Sequence record: PZ379176.1
Source of the DNA: a phage
Strand: one strand, 5' to 3'
Length of the DNA stretch: 64,000 nt
Shown: piece by piece, positions 9,728 to 11,789 of the stretch
Layout of the letters: each line of letters opens with the position of its first letter
Position numbering within the stretch: the first letter of the stretch is position 1
Notes under the pieces: generated by a model
Databases searched by the model: none
What the model saw: the letters and a program-made list of their open reading frames with translations, nothing else
What the model was told of the DNA's origin: nothing
Made by a program: the position numbers and the translations under genes

Positions 9728-9806
9728 TCAATGGGTGCCTCTGATAAAGGGGCACAATTTAAAGGTTAATTAGATGAAAGGGTTTACCCTTCAGGTGGAT
9801 TAGAAA

Positions 9807-11789
9807 ATTTGTGGCATCGTATTAGCTGGCGGTAATCTGTCAAGCACTGATTTAGACGTATTTAACCAACTCTTTTATGCTGGAGTATTCCGAGGACAAC
9901 ATTCCTCCGGTATCTTTGGTCAGCGTAAAAGTACTAAGGAAGTCTTCACTTATAAAGAAGCTCTTCCTTCTTTCGCATTCATCCTACAAGATGAGTACAA
10001 GAAGCACACCACTGGTGAAACAGCTTACACTGTAGCACCTTCATGGATTGTTGGTCACAGTCGTCATGCAACGAAAGGTGCAGTTAACGCCAAGAACGCC
10101 CATCCTTTCCAACATGGTAACATCACTCTGGTTCATAATGGAACCTTGATGGACCAAGACCTGTTACCTGACAGTAAAAACTTCGAGGTAGATAGTGAGA
10201 ACATCTGCCACTCTATTAACACTATTGGTGCAGCAGAGACTATTCAAAAGCTGGATGGTGCTTTCACCTTAATCTGGCATGATGCTTCTGATAACCGCCT
10301 TCATATCATTCGTAACGAAGAGCGTCCTTTCCATCTCGCACGTTGTAACAGAGATTGGTTTGGCGCTTCTGAAGAAGATATGCTGATGTGGATTCTGAAG
10401 CGTTCGAAGTCTCACAAGAACCGTATTGATGAGCATTTTGAGTGTAAAGTTGGTACAGAGTATATCTTTGACATGTCTAATAACAGCATGACACTGGTTG
10501 AAGAGGTCGCCCACGAGCTTCCGGTTTTTACGGTAGTCAATCGTTGGGGCAATTACTACTCGAACAATTACAGCCAAAGCAACTATCAAAGTTCCTCAAA
10601 AAGCAGTACAAGCAATCCTTACGACACGAAGCCGGGTGTGACAGCGGCAGACGTTCGTCGAAGAAACGCAGTGGTAAGTCAAAACAAAATCGCAAGCGAT
10701 CGAAACATTGATATTCGCCGCGATATGACTGTGGAAATCACTCCGCATGAGTTTGTTCCTTATGCAACTGCCGGTGCTGTTCCTTCTCGTGGTAAGATGA
10801 TTGGTTATATCTACGATGAGAAATCTCAAGAGTATATCGAAGGTGATGTTCATAACGTAGACATTAAGGCTTATCAGGATGCCCTGAAAGACCCTAAAAT
10901 TGTTTACCGTGGGACAGTATCCTGCATCTCCGAAGTCAATGCTATGGTCCGTTTAGTGATCACAGCAGGTCGTTTTGTTGACCCATCTCTGGAGAAAAAG
11001 GAGCCTGAGTCAACTACTGCTGACTTCGATGATGATATCCCTTTTGATATGAATGATAGTTTCGTCAACAAGAATGGTGTTACTATCACTCGTAAATTCT
11101 GGGAAGCGCACTCTCATGGTGATTGTGGTGGTTGTGATAAGCACATTGATTGGAAGGATGCACCTAAAGCAGTCTTCGCATATCAGTGCTATTGGCATCC
11201 TGAATGTCTGGAAGGTTTGACTAAACCTAAAGAGGAAGAAGAGGAGGAAACTCCTATTGGTGTTTGTGAAATCTGCGGTGAAGTTAAAACAGAGAATGAG
11301 TTCGATGATGAACTTAGTCGTCTTCGTGGTGAAGATATCTGTAAAGTCTGCGCTGTAGAAGTAAAGAAGAAAGTGTCTAATGCTACGATCAAAGATGGTT
11401 ATGTCTGGATTAAAGCAACAGATACAACAAACGCCCGTCGTCCTGAATTCGCTTTACGTGTAACTGAAGATATGATCGGTCGTATGACTGTATTACCTTC
11501 CTCAGCGAAACAGACAGGCATCACTCTGGAGGATGTTGTTGATGCTTATGTTGAGAAACGTAGCAACAGTATTTTTGCAATCTCAACTAAGCCAAAAAGG
11601 AGGAACCTGCTGAGAAAGCAGGTGTGTTTCCTGAATCACGAACAGCTCTCCGCAAAACTGTCGTCAGCTTCGACGGAAACCGAAGCACTGACTTCACCAA
11701 AGCAATGTGGTCAACCCTCGGATACTGCTCAGAGTGTTTTAAGCAGATTCCGTGGCGCGATGCTGAAAGTTGTACGCTTGGTTCTATGA
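9807..11789 (+). CDS. class II (Ntn) glutamine amidotransferase-like domain fused to a Cys-rich C-terminal region; probable non-canonical ATT start
   Basis: Frame of track ORF 10146..11789 stays open back to 9804; translation from 9810 reads CGIVLAGG...RGQHSSGIF; AGGTGGA SD-like 7 nt upstream of ATT 9807; in-frame ATG 9774 is separated by TAG 9801-9803. Confidence 0.5.
   Translation: MCGIVLAGGNLSSTDLDVFNQLFYAGVFRGQHSSGIFGQRKSTKEVFTYKEALPSFAFILQDEYKKHTTGETAYTVAPSWIVGHSRHATKGAVNAKNAHPFQHGNITLVHNGTLMDQDLLPDSKNFEVDSENICHSINTIGAAETIQKLDGAFTLIWHDASDNRLHIIRNEERPFHLARCNRDWFGASEEDMLMWILKRSKSHKNRIDEHFECKVGTEYIFDMSNNSMTLVEEVAHELPVFTVVNRWGNYYSNNYSQSNYQSSSKSSTSNPYDTKPGVTAADVRRRNAVVSQNKIASDRNIDIRRDMTVEITPHEFVPYATAGAVPSRGKMIGYIYDEKSQEYIEGDVHNVDIKAYQDALKDPKIVYRGTVSCISEVNAMVRLVITAGRFVDPSLEKKEPESTTADFDDDIPFDMNDSFVNKNGVTITRKFWEAHSHGDCGGCDKHIDWKDAPKAVFAYQCYWHPECLEGLTKPKEEEEEETPIGVCEICGEVKTENEFDDELSRLRGEDICKVCAVEVKKKVSNATIKDGYVWIKATDTTNARRPEFALRVTEDMIGRMTVLPSSAKQTGITLEDVVDAYVEKRSNSIFAISTKPKRRNLLRKQVCFLNHEQLSAKLSSASTETEALTSPKQCGQPSDTAQSVLSRFRGAMLKVVRLVL

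What the first reader, a model, noticed from the sequence alone, without database searches (positions are those of the whole stretch)
9774..9812. Amidotransferase gene lacks a canonical start: in-frame ATG is cut off by TAG, and the catalytic Cys codon follows an ATT with a good Shine-Dalgarno
The amidotransferase reading frame is open only from 9804. The codon at 9810 is the Cys that would be the N-terminal nucleophile (CGIVLAGG). The only nearby start-like codon is ATT at 9807, 7 nt after AGGTGGA. An in-frame ATG at 9774 begins a 9-codon mini-ORF (MKGFTLQVD) ending in TAG at 9801, immediately before. Ntn amidotransferases need Cys as residue 1 after Met removal, so an AUU start or reinitiation after the mini-ORF would give exactly the required N-terminus. 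Amber read-through would not.
Basis: seen in the sequence. Interest (0 to 1): 0.6.

Follow-up and report, generated by a model that had tools for sequence, protein, structure and literature searches.

The report
Real ATT start codon of phage amidotransferase
This phage enzyme gene almost certainly starts at the rare codon ATT, so that its catalytic cysteine becomes residue 1; the ATT lies in a 55-base leader identical in 97 phage genome records, and about 30% of related phage genes sampled also start at ATT or ATC.

Summary
ATG 9774 opens a 9-codon mini-ORF that ends at TAG 9801. ATT 9807 directly precedes the Cys codon at 9810, and AGGTGGA lies 7 nt upstream of the ATT. The window is a phiEco32-like Kuravirus.

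ATT is very probably the true start codon:
- It sits exactly where 22 of 24 hand-checked homologues without this leader carry ATG, GTG or TTG; the other two carry ATC.
- The 112 codons before the first canonical in-frame start are under strong purifying selection (dN/dS about 0.06, synonymous sites saturated).
- TAG is an ordinary stop in this genome and there is no suppressor tRNA.

The ATT start is already annotated in GenBank for phiEco32, SU10 and Bas90, so the bare fact is not new.

Three things seem unreported in the literature I could search:
- The 55-nt leader 9760-9814 is identical in 97 phage records from three genera.
- Its stop, 3-nt gap and AUU copy the E. coli thrS-infC junction.
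- Across 97 non-redundant phage homologues the start codon is ATG 55, ATT 22, ATC 7, TTG 11, GTG 2. The weak codons come with stronger Shine-Dalgarno sequences. Cellular homologues use ATG or a propeptide.

Whether initiation is direct or follows the mini-ORF is unresolved.

The parts
9735..9755 (+). Stem-loop after the amidoligase gene (GUGCCUCU...AGGGGCAC). It is probably an RNA-stability or weak terminator element and lies upstream of the leader.
   Evidence: Predicted in every fold. Three pairs show compensatory changes in SU7/ECBP2/EP335. Analogous hairpins occur at the same place in distant homologues.
9760..9814 (+). Invariant 55-nt leader block: TAAAGGTTAATTAGATGAAAGGGTTTACCCTTCAGGTGGATTAGAAAATTTGTGG.
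   Evidence: It is 100% identical in 97 phage records of Kuravirus, Suseptimavirus and Nieuwekanaalvirus, while synonymous sites just downstream are saturated (pS about 0.7). It is 91.5% identical in Aeromonas phage BUCT695, whose flanks are unalignable. It occurs once in the window.
9774..9803 (+). Mini-ORF ATG...TAG (MKGFTLQVD*), in frame with the amidotransferase and bounded upstream by TAG 9771-9773.
   Evidence: It is retained as MKGLTLQAD* in BUCT695. Whether it is translated is not shown.
9778..9791 (+). Small hairpin HP-A: AAGGG-UUUA-CCCUU (-5.3 kcal/mol). A competing hairpin of equal energy (GGUUUACC/GGUGGAUU, 9781-9801) would hide the Shine-Dalgarno sequence.
   Evidence: The two BUCT695 substitutions keep HP-A (the loop becomes UUAA) and break the competing hairpin.
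9793..9799 (+). Shine-Dalgarno sequence AGGTGGA, 7 nt before the ATT.
   Evidence: The duplex with the anti-SD is -5.9 kcal/mol.
9801..9803 (+). TAG stop of the mini-ORF, 3 nt before the ATT. The spacing is the same as thrS UAA-GGU-AUU infC.
   Evidence: TAG ends 7 of 66 long ORFs in the window. The only tRNA is Arg-TCT. The infC junction is described in PMC3592434.
9807..9809 (+). ATT, the inferred initiation codon of the amidotransferase.
   Evidence: It is the positional homologue of the ATG/GTG/TTG/ATC start of homologues. It is annotated as the CDS start in phiEco32, SU10 and Bas90.
9810..9812 (+). TGT, the catalytic N-terminal Cys (Cys1 after Met removal).
   Evidence: It is invariant in the family alignments. 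Profile position 1 aligns to Cys1 of E. coli PurF and Cys2 of human GFAT1.
9807..11789 (+). Amidotransferase CDS as it reads in the window: a class-II GATase domain plus a long C-terminal extension. A 1-bp deletion in an A-run before 11594 shifts the frame. In relatives the gene runs to the equivalent of 11836.
   Evidence: Pfam GATase_6/7. The indel was mapped against ShigP1 and phiEco32. The phiEco32 CDS is 2031 nt.
10146..10151 (+). TTG-ATG, the first canonical in-frame start codons. Several automated annotations use them, which cuts off Cys1, Arg28 and most of the Asn110-Gly111 HNG motif.
   Evidence: ShigP1, FS2B and EK5 start their CDS here.

Best explanation
ATT 9807 is the genuine initiation codon of a phage class-II (N-terminal-nucleophile) glutamine amidotransferase. 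The 30S subunit is positioned by AGGUGGA (9793-9799), initiator fMet-tRNA reads AUU, and deformylase and Met-aminopeptidase expose Cys1, the catalytic nucleophile. These processing steps are inferred from established knowledge of Ntn amidotransferases.

The AUU sits in a 55-nt leader (9760-9814) under extreme sequence constraint. The leader contains a 9-codon upstream ORF that stops 3 nt before the AUU, and a small hairpin. I infer that the leader sets or gates the efficiency of this weak start. Initiation would be partly direct, driven by the Shine-Dalgarno sequence. It could also come partly from ribosomes that terminate at UAG and reinitiate, as at the E. coli thrS-infC junction. Either route would make expression sensitive to IF3.

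Weak start codons are a recurring trait of this phage enzyme family. Because Cys must be residue 1, the start position cannot move, and start-codon identity and Shine-Dalgarno strength vary together.
For: 1. Position. Of 24 hand-checked homologues without this leader, 22 have ATG, GTG or TTG immediately before the Cys codon. The two Zobellviridae phages IME180 and Klyazma have ATC.

2. Translation of the N-terminal region. For the 112 codons between ATT and TTG 10146, dN/dS is 0.06-0.075 with pS about 0.7 against Suseptimavirus and Nieuwekanaalvirus.

3. Catalytic residues. C1, G2, R28-G29, H83/R85/T88, N110-G111 and D128 are invariant. The profile aligns Cys1 to Cys1 of PurF and GFAT. Pfam GATase_6/7 score above the gathering threshold.

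4. No alternative route. There is no canonical in-frame start for 114 codons, TAG is a used stop, and there is no suppressor tRNA.

5. Leader conservation. The leader is 100% identical in 97 records.

6. Family pattern. Among 97 non-redundant phage loci the start codon is ATG 55, ATT 22, ATC 7, TTG 11, GTG 2. Shine-Dalgarno duplex energies are AUU/AUC -8.0, UUG/GUG -8.45 and ATG -5.9 kcal/mol (Mann-Whitney p = 8e-6 and 1e-4). At least 25 switches are inferred on a rough tree. In 19 of the 25 AUU/AUC loci in the 79-locus IMG/VR survey (before de-duplication) there is no canonical in-frame codon between the upstream stop and the Cys.

7. Cellular control. The counts are 49 ATG, 13 propeptide-type and 1 ATT, the last on a probable phage contig.

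8. Known precedent. AUU and AUC are the infC start codons across bacteria, and AUU is IF3-sensitive. Annotated non-canonical starts run at 0.004-0.024% (PMC5499595). The infC junction UAA-GGU-AUU draws about equally on reinitiation and de novo initiation (PMC3592434).

9. Expression. The protein was detected by mass spectrometry in SU10 (PMC4281155).

10. Curated records of phiEco32, SU10 and Bas90 start the CDS at the ATT.
Against: - There is no direct evidence of the N-terminus or of initiation at 9807. The SU10 proteomics does not report the N-terminal peptide.
- The Shine-Dalgarno sequence here is only moderate (-5.9 kcal/mol), weaker than the AUU/AUC class mean.
- Predicted folds partly occlude the Shine-Dalgarno sequence and the AUU (probability unpaired 0.33-0.57).
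- The leader shows no covariation because it does not vary, so no structure is proven.
- For the reinitiation component, the mini-ORF AUG is predicted to be mostly paired. BUCT695 has no Shine-Dalgarno sequence for it.
- Elsewhere in the family, AUU/AUC genes are not tightly coupled to the upstream gene (median gap 25.5 nt, against 6 nt for ATG genes).
Confidence: 0.85

Rival explanations
1. AUU is used, but mainly by ribosomes that translate the mini-ORF (AUG 9774), terminate at UAG 9801 and reinitiate 3 nt downstream. The mini-ORF would be an obligatory delivery device rather than an incidental feature.
For: The stop, 3-nt gap and AUU match the thrS-infC junction, where reinitiation supplies about half of expression (PMC3592434). 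The mini-ORF with its ATG and TAG is kept in all 97 records and in BUCT695 despite two non-synonymous changes there. The Shine-Dalgarno sequence for AUU is only moderate.
Against: The mini-ORF AUG is predicted to be largely base-paired (probability unpaired 0.01-0.33). BUCT695 has no Shine-Dalgarno sequence upstream of it (+0.9 kcal/mol). Other AUU/AUC members of the family rely on strong stand-alone Shine-Dalgarno sequences and have larger gaps to the upstream gene. Because the leader is invariant, coding constraint and RNA constraint cannot be separated.
Confidence: 0.25
2. Translation starts at ATG 9774, the TAG is read through, and a 12-residue propeptide (MKGFTLQVD-X-KI) is removed autocatalytically, as in Bacillus PurF.
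For: The mini-ORF is in frame. Propeptide-bearing class-II amidotransferases exist (13 cellular loci with Glu/Asn/Gln before the Cys). B. subtilis PurF has an 11-residue propeptide (established knowledge).
Against: TAG terminates 7 of 66 long ORFs in the window. The only tRNA is Arg-TCT. Homologues without the leader start directly at the codon before Cys with no extension. In 19 of the 25 AUU/AUC loci in the 79-locus IMG/VR survey no upstream in-frame canonical start exists at all.
Confidence: 0.03
3. The gene is an N-terminally truncated product or a pseudogene: translation begins at TTG 10146 or ATG 10149 and the amidotransferase domain is not made.
For: Many automated annotations start there. 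The window copy carries a frameshift in its C-terminal part.
Against: dN/dS is 0.06-0.075 over the 112 upstream codons, with saturated synonymous sites. All catalytic residues are kept. The frameshift is a homopolymer deletion private to this record.
Confidence: 0.02
4. The invariant leader is primarily an operator for a phage or host RNA-binding protein, or an RNA switch between the two hairpins of equal energy. It would turn translation on or off during infection. The AUU would be only one part of it. This is compatible with the main explanation.
For: The invariance covers all 55 nt, more than a Shine-Dalgarno sequence plus a start codon requires. Two mutually exclusive hairpins of equal energy either expose or hide the Shine-Dalgarno sequence.
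Against: The element occurs once in the 64-kb window, so it is not a shared operator. There is no Rfam match. The BUCT695 changes abolish the Shine-Dalgarno-hiding hairpin. No binding partner is known.
Confidence: 0.2

Closest known systems
phi32_83 of phage phiEco32 (ABY52884 / YP_001671828), SU10_085 and Bas90_0080
   Same: This is the same gene. phiEco32 is 97.7% identical over 9300-11800 and its leader is identical. The CDS in these records starts at this ATT.
   Different: These are annotations only. I found no experimental proof or discussion of the start codon in the papers I could read. Many other records truncate the gene.
E. coli infC (IF3), whose AUU start lies 3 nt after the thrS stop
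   Same: It has an AUU (AUC in some species) start, a stop codon of an upstream ORF 3 nt before it (UAA-GGU-AUU there, UAG-AAA-AUU here), and a Shine-Dalgarno sequence inside the upstream ORF. Expression comes from both reinitiation and de novo initiation and is repressed by IF3 (PMC3592434; PMC5499595).
   Different: Here the upstream ORF is a 9-codon mini-ORF, not a full gene. The product is not a translation factor, so there is no autoregulatory loop. IF3 sensitivity is untested.
E. coli pcnB (an AUU start that limits expression)
   Same: It is a weak AUU start used to keep an enzyme at a low level (cited in PMC3592434 and PMC5499595).
   Different: In this phage family the weak codons are paired with stronger Shine-Dalgarno sequences, so simple down-tuning may not be the whole story.
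Class-II (Ntn) glutamine amidotransferases: PurF, GlmS/GFAT, AsnB
   Same: They share the N-terminal Cys nucleophile, the R-G, H-x-R-x-A-T, N-G and D-S motifs, and the profile match.
   Different: The C-terminal 450 residues have no recognised synthase domain. The cellular enzymes sampled use ATG or a propeptide, and only one probable phage contig has ATT.
Bacillus subtilis PurF-type propeptide processing
   Same: It is another way to obtain Cys1 when Cys is not the second codon. Such loci appeared in the control set.
   Different: It needs an uninterrupted ORF from an upstream start. Here a TAG intervenes and there is no suppression system.

Membership tests
Class-II (Ntn) glutamine amidotransferase | Catalytic Cys as the first residue of the mature protein | tested here: met
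   The Cys codon at 9810 directly follows the inferred start. It is invariant in 24 homologues. Profile position 1 aligns to Cys1 of PurF 1ecb and Cys2 of GFAT1 6r4i.
Class-II (Ntn) glutamine amidotransferase | Conserved glutamine-site residues: Arg-Gly, the Asn-Gly oxyanion hole and Asp | tested here: met
   R28-G29, H83/R85/T88, N110-G111 and V127-D128-S129 are invariant in alignments A2 and A4. Pfam GATase_6 scores 55 bits (cut-off 27) and GATase_7 27.4 bits (cut-off 25).
Class-II (Ntn) glutamine amidotransferase | Glutaminase activity coupled to an acceptor (synthase) domain | not testable with these tools
   The C-terminal 450 residues have no Pfam match. The neighbouring genes encode Amidoligase_2, COOH-NH2_lig, an ATP-grasp protein and GGACT.
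Genes initiated at AUU/AUC (infC/pcnB type) | The non-canonical codon lies exactly where the protein must begin, and no canonical alternative exists | tested here: met
   ATT is the positional homologue of the start codon of homologues. There are 114 startless open codons. The downstream codons are under purifying selection.
Genes initiated at AUU/AUC (infC/pcnB type) | A Shine-Dalgarno sequence at functional spacing | tested here: met
   AGGTGGA lies 7 nt upstream (-5.9 kcal/mol). Family-wide, AUU/AUC starts have stronger Shine-Dalgarno sequences than ATG starts (p = 8e-6).
Genes initiated at AUU/AUC (infC/pcnB type) | Demonstrated initiation with fMet at the codon, and repression by IF3 | not testable with these tools
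   This needs toeprinting, Ribo-RET, N-terminal mass spectrometry and IF3 titration.
Termination-reinitiation coupling (thrS-infC type) | The upstream ORF stops within a few nucleotides of the start codon | tested here: met
   UAG 9801-9803, AAA, AUU 9807. The 3-nt gap is the same as at infC.
Termination-reinitiation coupling (thrS-infC type) | The upstream ORF is itself translated | tested here: inconclusive
   The ATG and TAG are conserved. However, the AUG is predicted to be paired, and BUCT695 has no Shine-Dalgarno sequence for it.
Propeptide-type Ntn amidotransferase reached by stop-codon read-through | A continuous reading frame or a recoding system linking an upstream start to the Cys | tested here: not met
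   TAG is a used stop (7 of 66 ORFs). The only tRNA is Arg-TCT. Homologues have no extension.
Known RNA families / promoters / terminators | A match to an Rfam model, a sigma-70 consensus or the phiEco32 gp36 promoter tAATGTAtA | tested here: not met
   The best Rfam E-value is 0.39, far below the gathering score. There is no promoter or terminator on the + strand in the leader. The gp36 consensus (PMC8948821) is absent from the leader. SU10 lists no promoter or terminator at this position.

The most novel reading that the evidence does not exclude
Phage Ntn amidotransferase genes as a family may have adopted infC-like, IF3-discriminated start codons. The sample shows AUU and AUC but never AUA, in 29 of 97 loci, with at least 25 switches and compensating strong Shine-Dalgarno sequences. 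This would couple production of a glutamine-hydrolysing enzyme to the translational state of the infected cell. In Gordonclarkvirinae the arrangement would be elaborated into a dedicated, sequence-invariant 55-nt device in which a 9-codon uORF terminates 3 nt before the AUU and hands ribosomes over to it.
Probability: 0.3. Interest if true: 0.65.

Novelty: new member of a known kind. Interest (0 to 1): 0.5.

Why it matters
AUU and AUC initiation is very rare in bacteria. E. coli has two AUU genes, and annotated non-canonical starts run at 0.004-0.024% (PMC5499595). Here one enzyme family uses AUU or AUC in about 30% of the phage lineages sampled.

Three consequences follow:
- The family is a natural series for studying how start-codon identity and Shine-Dalgarno strength co-evolve when the N-terminus is fixed by chemistry.
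- Gene callers that allow only ATG, GTG and TTG truncate these genes and remove the catalytic Cys. This affects many GenBank records, including ShigP1, FS2B, EK5, SU7, ECBP2, EP335, BUCT695, IME180 and Klyazma.
- The invariant leader is a compact, testable candidate for translational control in a widely used group of therapeutic coliphages.

Tried and rejected
- **Sequencing error at the ATT.** Rejected. The leader is identical in 97 records and in seven metagenome contigs, one of which has a synonymous TGT-to-TGC change.
- **TAG recoding or a suppressor tRNA.** Rejected.
- **T4 gene-60-type bypass.** A hop from GAU 9798 to the in-frame GAU 9849 (48-nt gap) would delete Cys1 and the conserved CGIVLAGG, so I rejected it by reasoning from the sequence and the conservation.
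- **Frameshift fusion with the upstream amidoligase.** Rejected. The two genes are in different frames and 79 nt apart, and a TAG at 9771 closes the frame.
- **Rfam.** No meaningful match.
- **Sigma-70 promoter, terminator or gp36 promoter in the leader.** None. The only promoter-like site is antisense (9843-9816) and is not conserved in SU7 or EP335.
- **A repeated operator elsewhere in the window.** None.
- **Leader variants in IMG/VR and metagenomes.** Only identical copies among true homologues. The other 82 metagenome hits to the 18-nt pattern were chance matches.
- **Prophage sRNA svsR as a regulator of these phages.** The paper reports no phage target.
- **Papers.** The phiEco32 papers of Savalia 2008 and Pavlova 2012 could not be read. 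Literature searches for this start-codon pattern found nothing relevant.
- **Profile search with the full 24-sequence alignment.** A closer subset was used instead.
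Full report
**What is there**

The window is a phiEco32-like podophage of genus Kuravirus (subfamily Gordonclarkvirinae). Positions 9300-11800 are essentially identical to Shigella phage ShigP1, apart from one single-base deletion, and 97.7% identical to phiEco32.

The finding reads exactly as described:
- TAG at 9771
- ATG at 9774, then AAA GGG TTT ACC CTT CAG GTG GAT
- TAG at 9801, then AAA
- ATT at 9807
- TGT at 9810, then GGC ATC GTA TTA GCT GGC GGT

AGGTGGA lies at 9793-9799. 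The next in-frame ATG/GTG/TTG is TTG 10146. That leaves 114 startless open codons. The other 40 long ORFs of the window have at most 37, most of them under 10.

**The product**

The protein is a class-II, N-terminal-nucleophile glutamine amidotransferase.
- Pfam GATase_6 and GATase_7 score above their gathering thresholds.
- In alignments of phage homologues C1, G2, R28-G29, H83/R85/T88, N110-G111 and D128 are invariant.
- A profile of the family matches GlmS/GFAT, PurF and AsnB structures, with profile position 1 on Cys1 of PurF and Cys2 of GFAT1.

The gene lies in the early cluster with Amidoligase_2, the phiEco32-type COOH-NH2 ligase, an ATP-grasp enzyme and a gamma-glutamyl cyclotransferase.

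**Why ATT is the start codon**

1. Position. I hand-checked 24 homologues that lack this leader. They include phages of Proteus, Cronobacter, Salmonella, Aeromonas, Pantoea, Pseudomonas, Vibrio and Arthrobacter, plus IMG/VR contigs. Twenty-two have ATG, GTG or TTG directly before the Cys codon. The Zobellviridae phages IME180 and Klyazma have ATC. ATT 9807 occupies that position.

2. Translation. The 112 codons between ATT and TTG 10146 have dN/dS of 0.06-0.075 against Suseptimavirus and Nieuwekanaalvirus, with synonymous sites saturated (pS about 0.7). This region is therefore translated. A product starting at 10146 would lack Cys1, Arg28 and most of the HNG motif.

3. No other route. TAG ends 7 of 66 long ORFs in the window. 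The only tRNA is Arg-TCT. The frame is closed on both sides of the mini-ORF.

4. Not an error. The 58-nt stretch 9758-9815 is 100% identical in 97 phage records and in seven metagenome contigs.

5. Expression. The protein was detected by mass spectrometry in phage SU10 (PMC4281155).

**Already annotated**

The GenBank and RefSeq records of phiEco32, and the records of SU10 and Bas90, start the CDS at this ATT. The bare fact of an ATT start is therefore in public annotation. Many other records start downstream and cut off the catalytic Cys. These include ShigP1, FS2B, EK5, SU7, ECBP2, EP335 and BUCT695. I found no paper that discusses the start codon, and the two phiEco32 papers could not be read.

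**The leader**

The core 9760-9814 does not vary in any of the 97 records, which span three genera. Thirty records are 90% identical or less over the surrounding 301 nt, and synonymous sites just downstream are saturated.

Aeromonas phage BUCT695 belongs to a different family, and its amidotransferase domain is only about 52% identical. It nevertheless has the same leader at 91.5% identity inside otherwise unalignable DNA. It keeps the ATT, the mini-ORF (MKGLTLQAD*) and the TAG.

The leader occurs once in the window. It matches no Rfam family and no promoter or terminator consensus.

It can form a small hairpin, AAGGG-UUUA-CCCUU. Alternatively it can form a hairpin of equal energy that hides the Shine-Dalgarno sequence (-5.3 against -5.4 kcal/mol). 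The two BUCT695 substitutions preserve the first hairpin and destroy the second. Because the leader does not vary, no structure can be supported by covariation.

The arrangement UAG-AAA-AUU has the same geometry as the E. coli thrS-infC junction, UAA-GGU-AUU. Reporter work on that junction attributes about half of expression to reinitiation and half to de novo initiation (PMC3592434).

**A family-wide pattern, found while testing the start codon**

An alignment-based scan of IMG/VR gave 79 usable loci of the Zobellviridae-type branch. The codon before Cys was ATG 41, ATT 19, TTG 11, ATC 6, GTG 1 and other 1.

I pooled these with the hand-checked loci and removed duplicates, leaving 97 loci. 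The counts are ATG 55, ATT 22, ATC 7, TTG 11, GTG 2 and no ATA.

- Near-identical proteins carry different start codons: L143 has ATC and L144 has TTG, and Klyazma has ATC while L187 has TTG and L190 has ATT.
- A rough parsimony count on a neighbour-joining tree gives at least 25 switches between AUU/AUC and other codons.
- In 19 of the 25 AUU/AUC loci in the 79-locus survey, no canonical in-frame codon lies between the upstream stop and the Cys.
- Weak start codons come with stronger Shine-Dalgarno sequences. Mean duplex energy is -8.0 kcal/mol for AUU/AUC and -8.45 for UUG/GUG, against -5.9 for ATG (p = 8e-6 and 1e-4). This is independent evidence that these codons function as starts.
- AUU/AUC genes are not tightly coupled to the upstream gene (median gap 25.5 nt, against 6 nt for ATG genes). 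In the wider family, initiation therefore appears to be driven directly by the Shine-Dalgarno sequence.

As a control I examined 63 cellular homologues. Forty-nine have ATG and 13 are of the PurF propeptide type. One has ATT, on a 4.2-kb contig that looks like phage DNA.

For scale, annotated non-canonical starts are 0.004-0.024% of bacterial starts, and infC uses AUU or AUC in all bacteria (PMC5499595).

**Mechanism: what is shown and what is inferred**

Shown by sequence comparison:
- ATT is the start position.
- The N-terminal domain is made.
- The leader is under strong constraint.
- Weak start codons recur and co-vary with Shine-Dalgarno strength.

Inferred:
- fMet-tRNA initiates on AUU and Met is removed to free Cys1.
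- Initiation is sensitive to IF3.
- The mini-ORF contributes reinitiating ribosomes.
- Because Cys must be residue 1, the start cannot move, so expression is tuned through codon identity and Shine-Dalgarno strength.

Points against the reinitiation component are the predicted pairing of the mini-ORF AUG and the lack of a Shine-Dalgarno sequence for it in BUCT695.

**Verdict**

The ATT start of this gene is already annotated but not experimentally proven. The invariant leader and the family-wide use of AUU/AUC appear to be unreported and are directly testable.

Noticed in passing
window 11594 and 12710: Two single-base deletions in homopolymer runs (A-run, C-run) relative to both ShigP1 and phiEco32. 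They frameshift the C-terminal part of the amidotransferase (the ORF ends at 11789 instead of 11836). They also split the ATP-grasp gene into 12280-12735 and 12762-13472. They are probably sequencing or assembly errors of this record.
   Followed up: yes
window 9735-9755: A stem-loop directly after the amidoligase stop codon shows compensatory changes in SU7/ECBP2 (GCGC arms) and a GAAA loop in EP335. Distant homologues carry analogous hairpins at the same place. Some records annotate a terminator here.
   Followed up: partly
L006 (Aeromonas phage BUCT695) 3804-4005: The DNA between the amidoligase-like gene and the leader looks by eye like remnants of an HNH homing endonuclease: MDKVLKKITHQGDCWLWTGCINSDGYPKE* and a helix-turn-helix piece. 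No domain search was run. Klyazma also has an HNH nuclease gene directly upstream of its ATC-start amidotransferase. Homing-associated co-conversion could explain how the leader reached BUCT695.
   Followed up: no
L124 (IME180), L126 (Klyazma), L003/L004 (SU7, ECBP2), L005 (EP335), L006 (BUCT695), L002 (ShigP1), L120, L121: The GenBank CDS of the amidotransferase starts at a downstream ATG/TTG in these records and omits the catalytic Cys. This is a systematic consequence of gene callers that do not allow ATT or ATC starts.
   Followed up: yes
L223 (JBFGVE010000196.1, 'Bacteroidia MAG', 4.2-kb contig): This was the only ATT-start locus in the cellular control set. It is 46% identical to the phage family and has an AAGGAGGA Shine-Dalgarno sequence. 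It is likely a phage contig binned into a MAG.
   Followed up: no
L007, L008, L018, L019, L006, upstream of the amidotransferase start: A conserved TTTAAATGTAA(A/T) motif lies between the upstream hairpin and the Shine-Dalgarno sequence in Grimontviridae-type relatives. Its core AATGTA resembles the phiEco32 gp36 promoter element tAATGTAtA. The window has TTTAAAGGTTAA instead.
   Followed up: no
L008 (Cronobacter phage GAP52) about 375-400: GAP52 has TAGATGAAAGGAtttttagtATG-TGT. It shares the first 11 nt of the leader core (TAGATGAAAGG) but has a normal ATG and lacks the hairpin and second Shine-Dalgarno segment. It may be an ancestral or intermediate form of the leader.
   Followed up: partly
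window 9843-9816, minus strand: A sigma-70-like promoter match (TTGACA, 16 nt, TACGAT) would drive antisense transcription through the leader. The -35 hexamer is not conserved in SU7 or EP335, so it is probably a chance match.
   Followed up: partly
window 56210-57346, minus strand: This ORF has the second-largest startless stretch in the window, 37 open codons before the first ATG/GTG/TTG. It was not examined further.
   Followed up: no
window 237-312: A single tRNA-Arg (TCT) gene is the only tRNA in the window.
   Followed up: no
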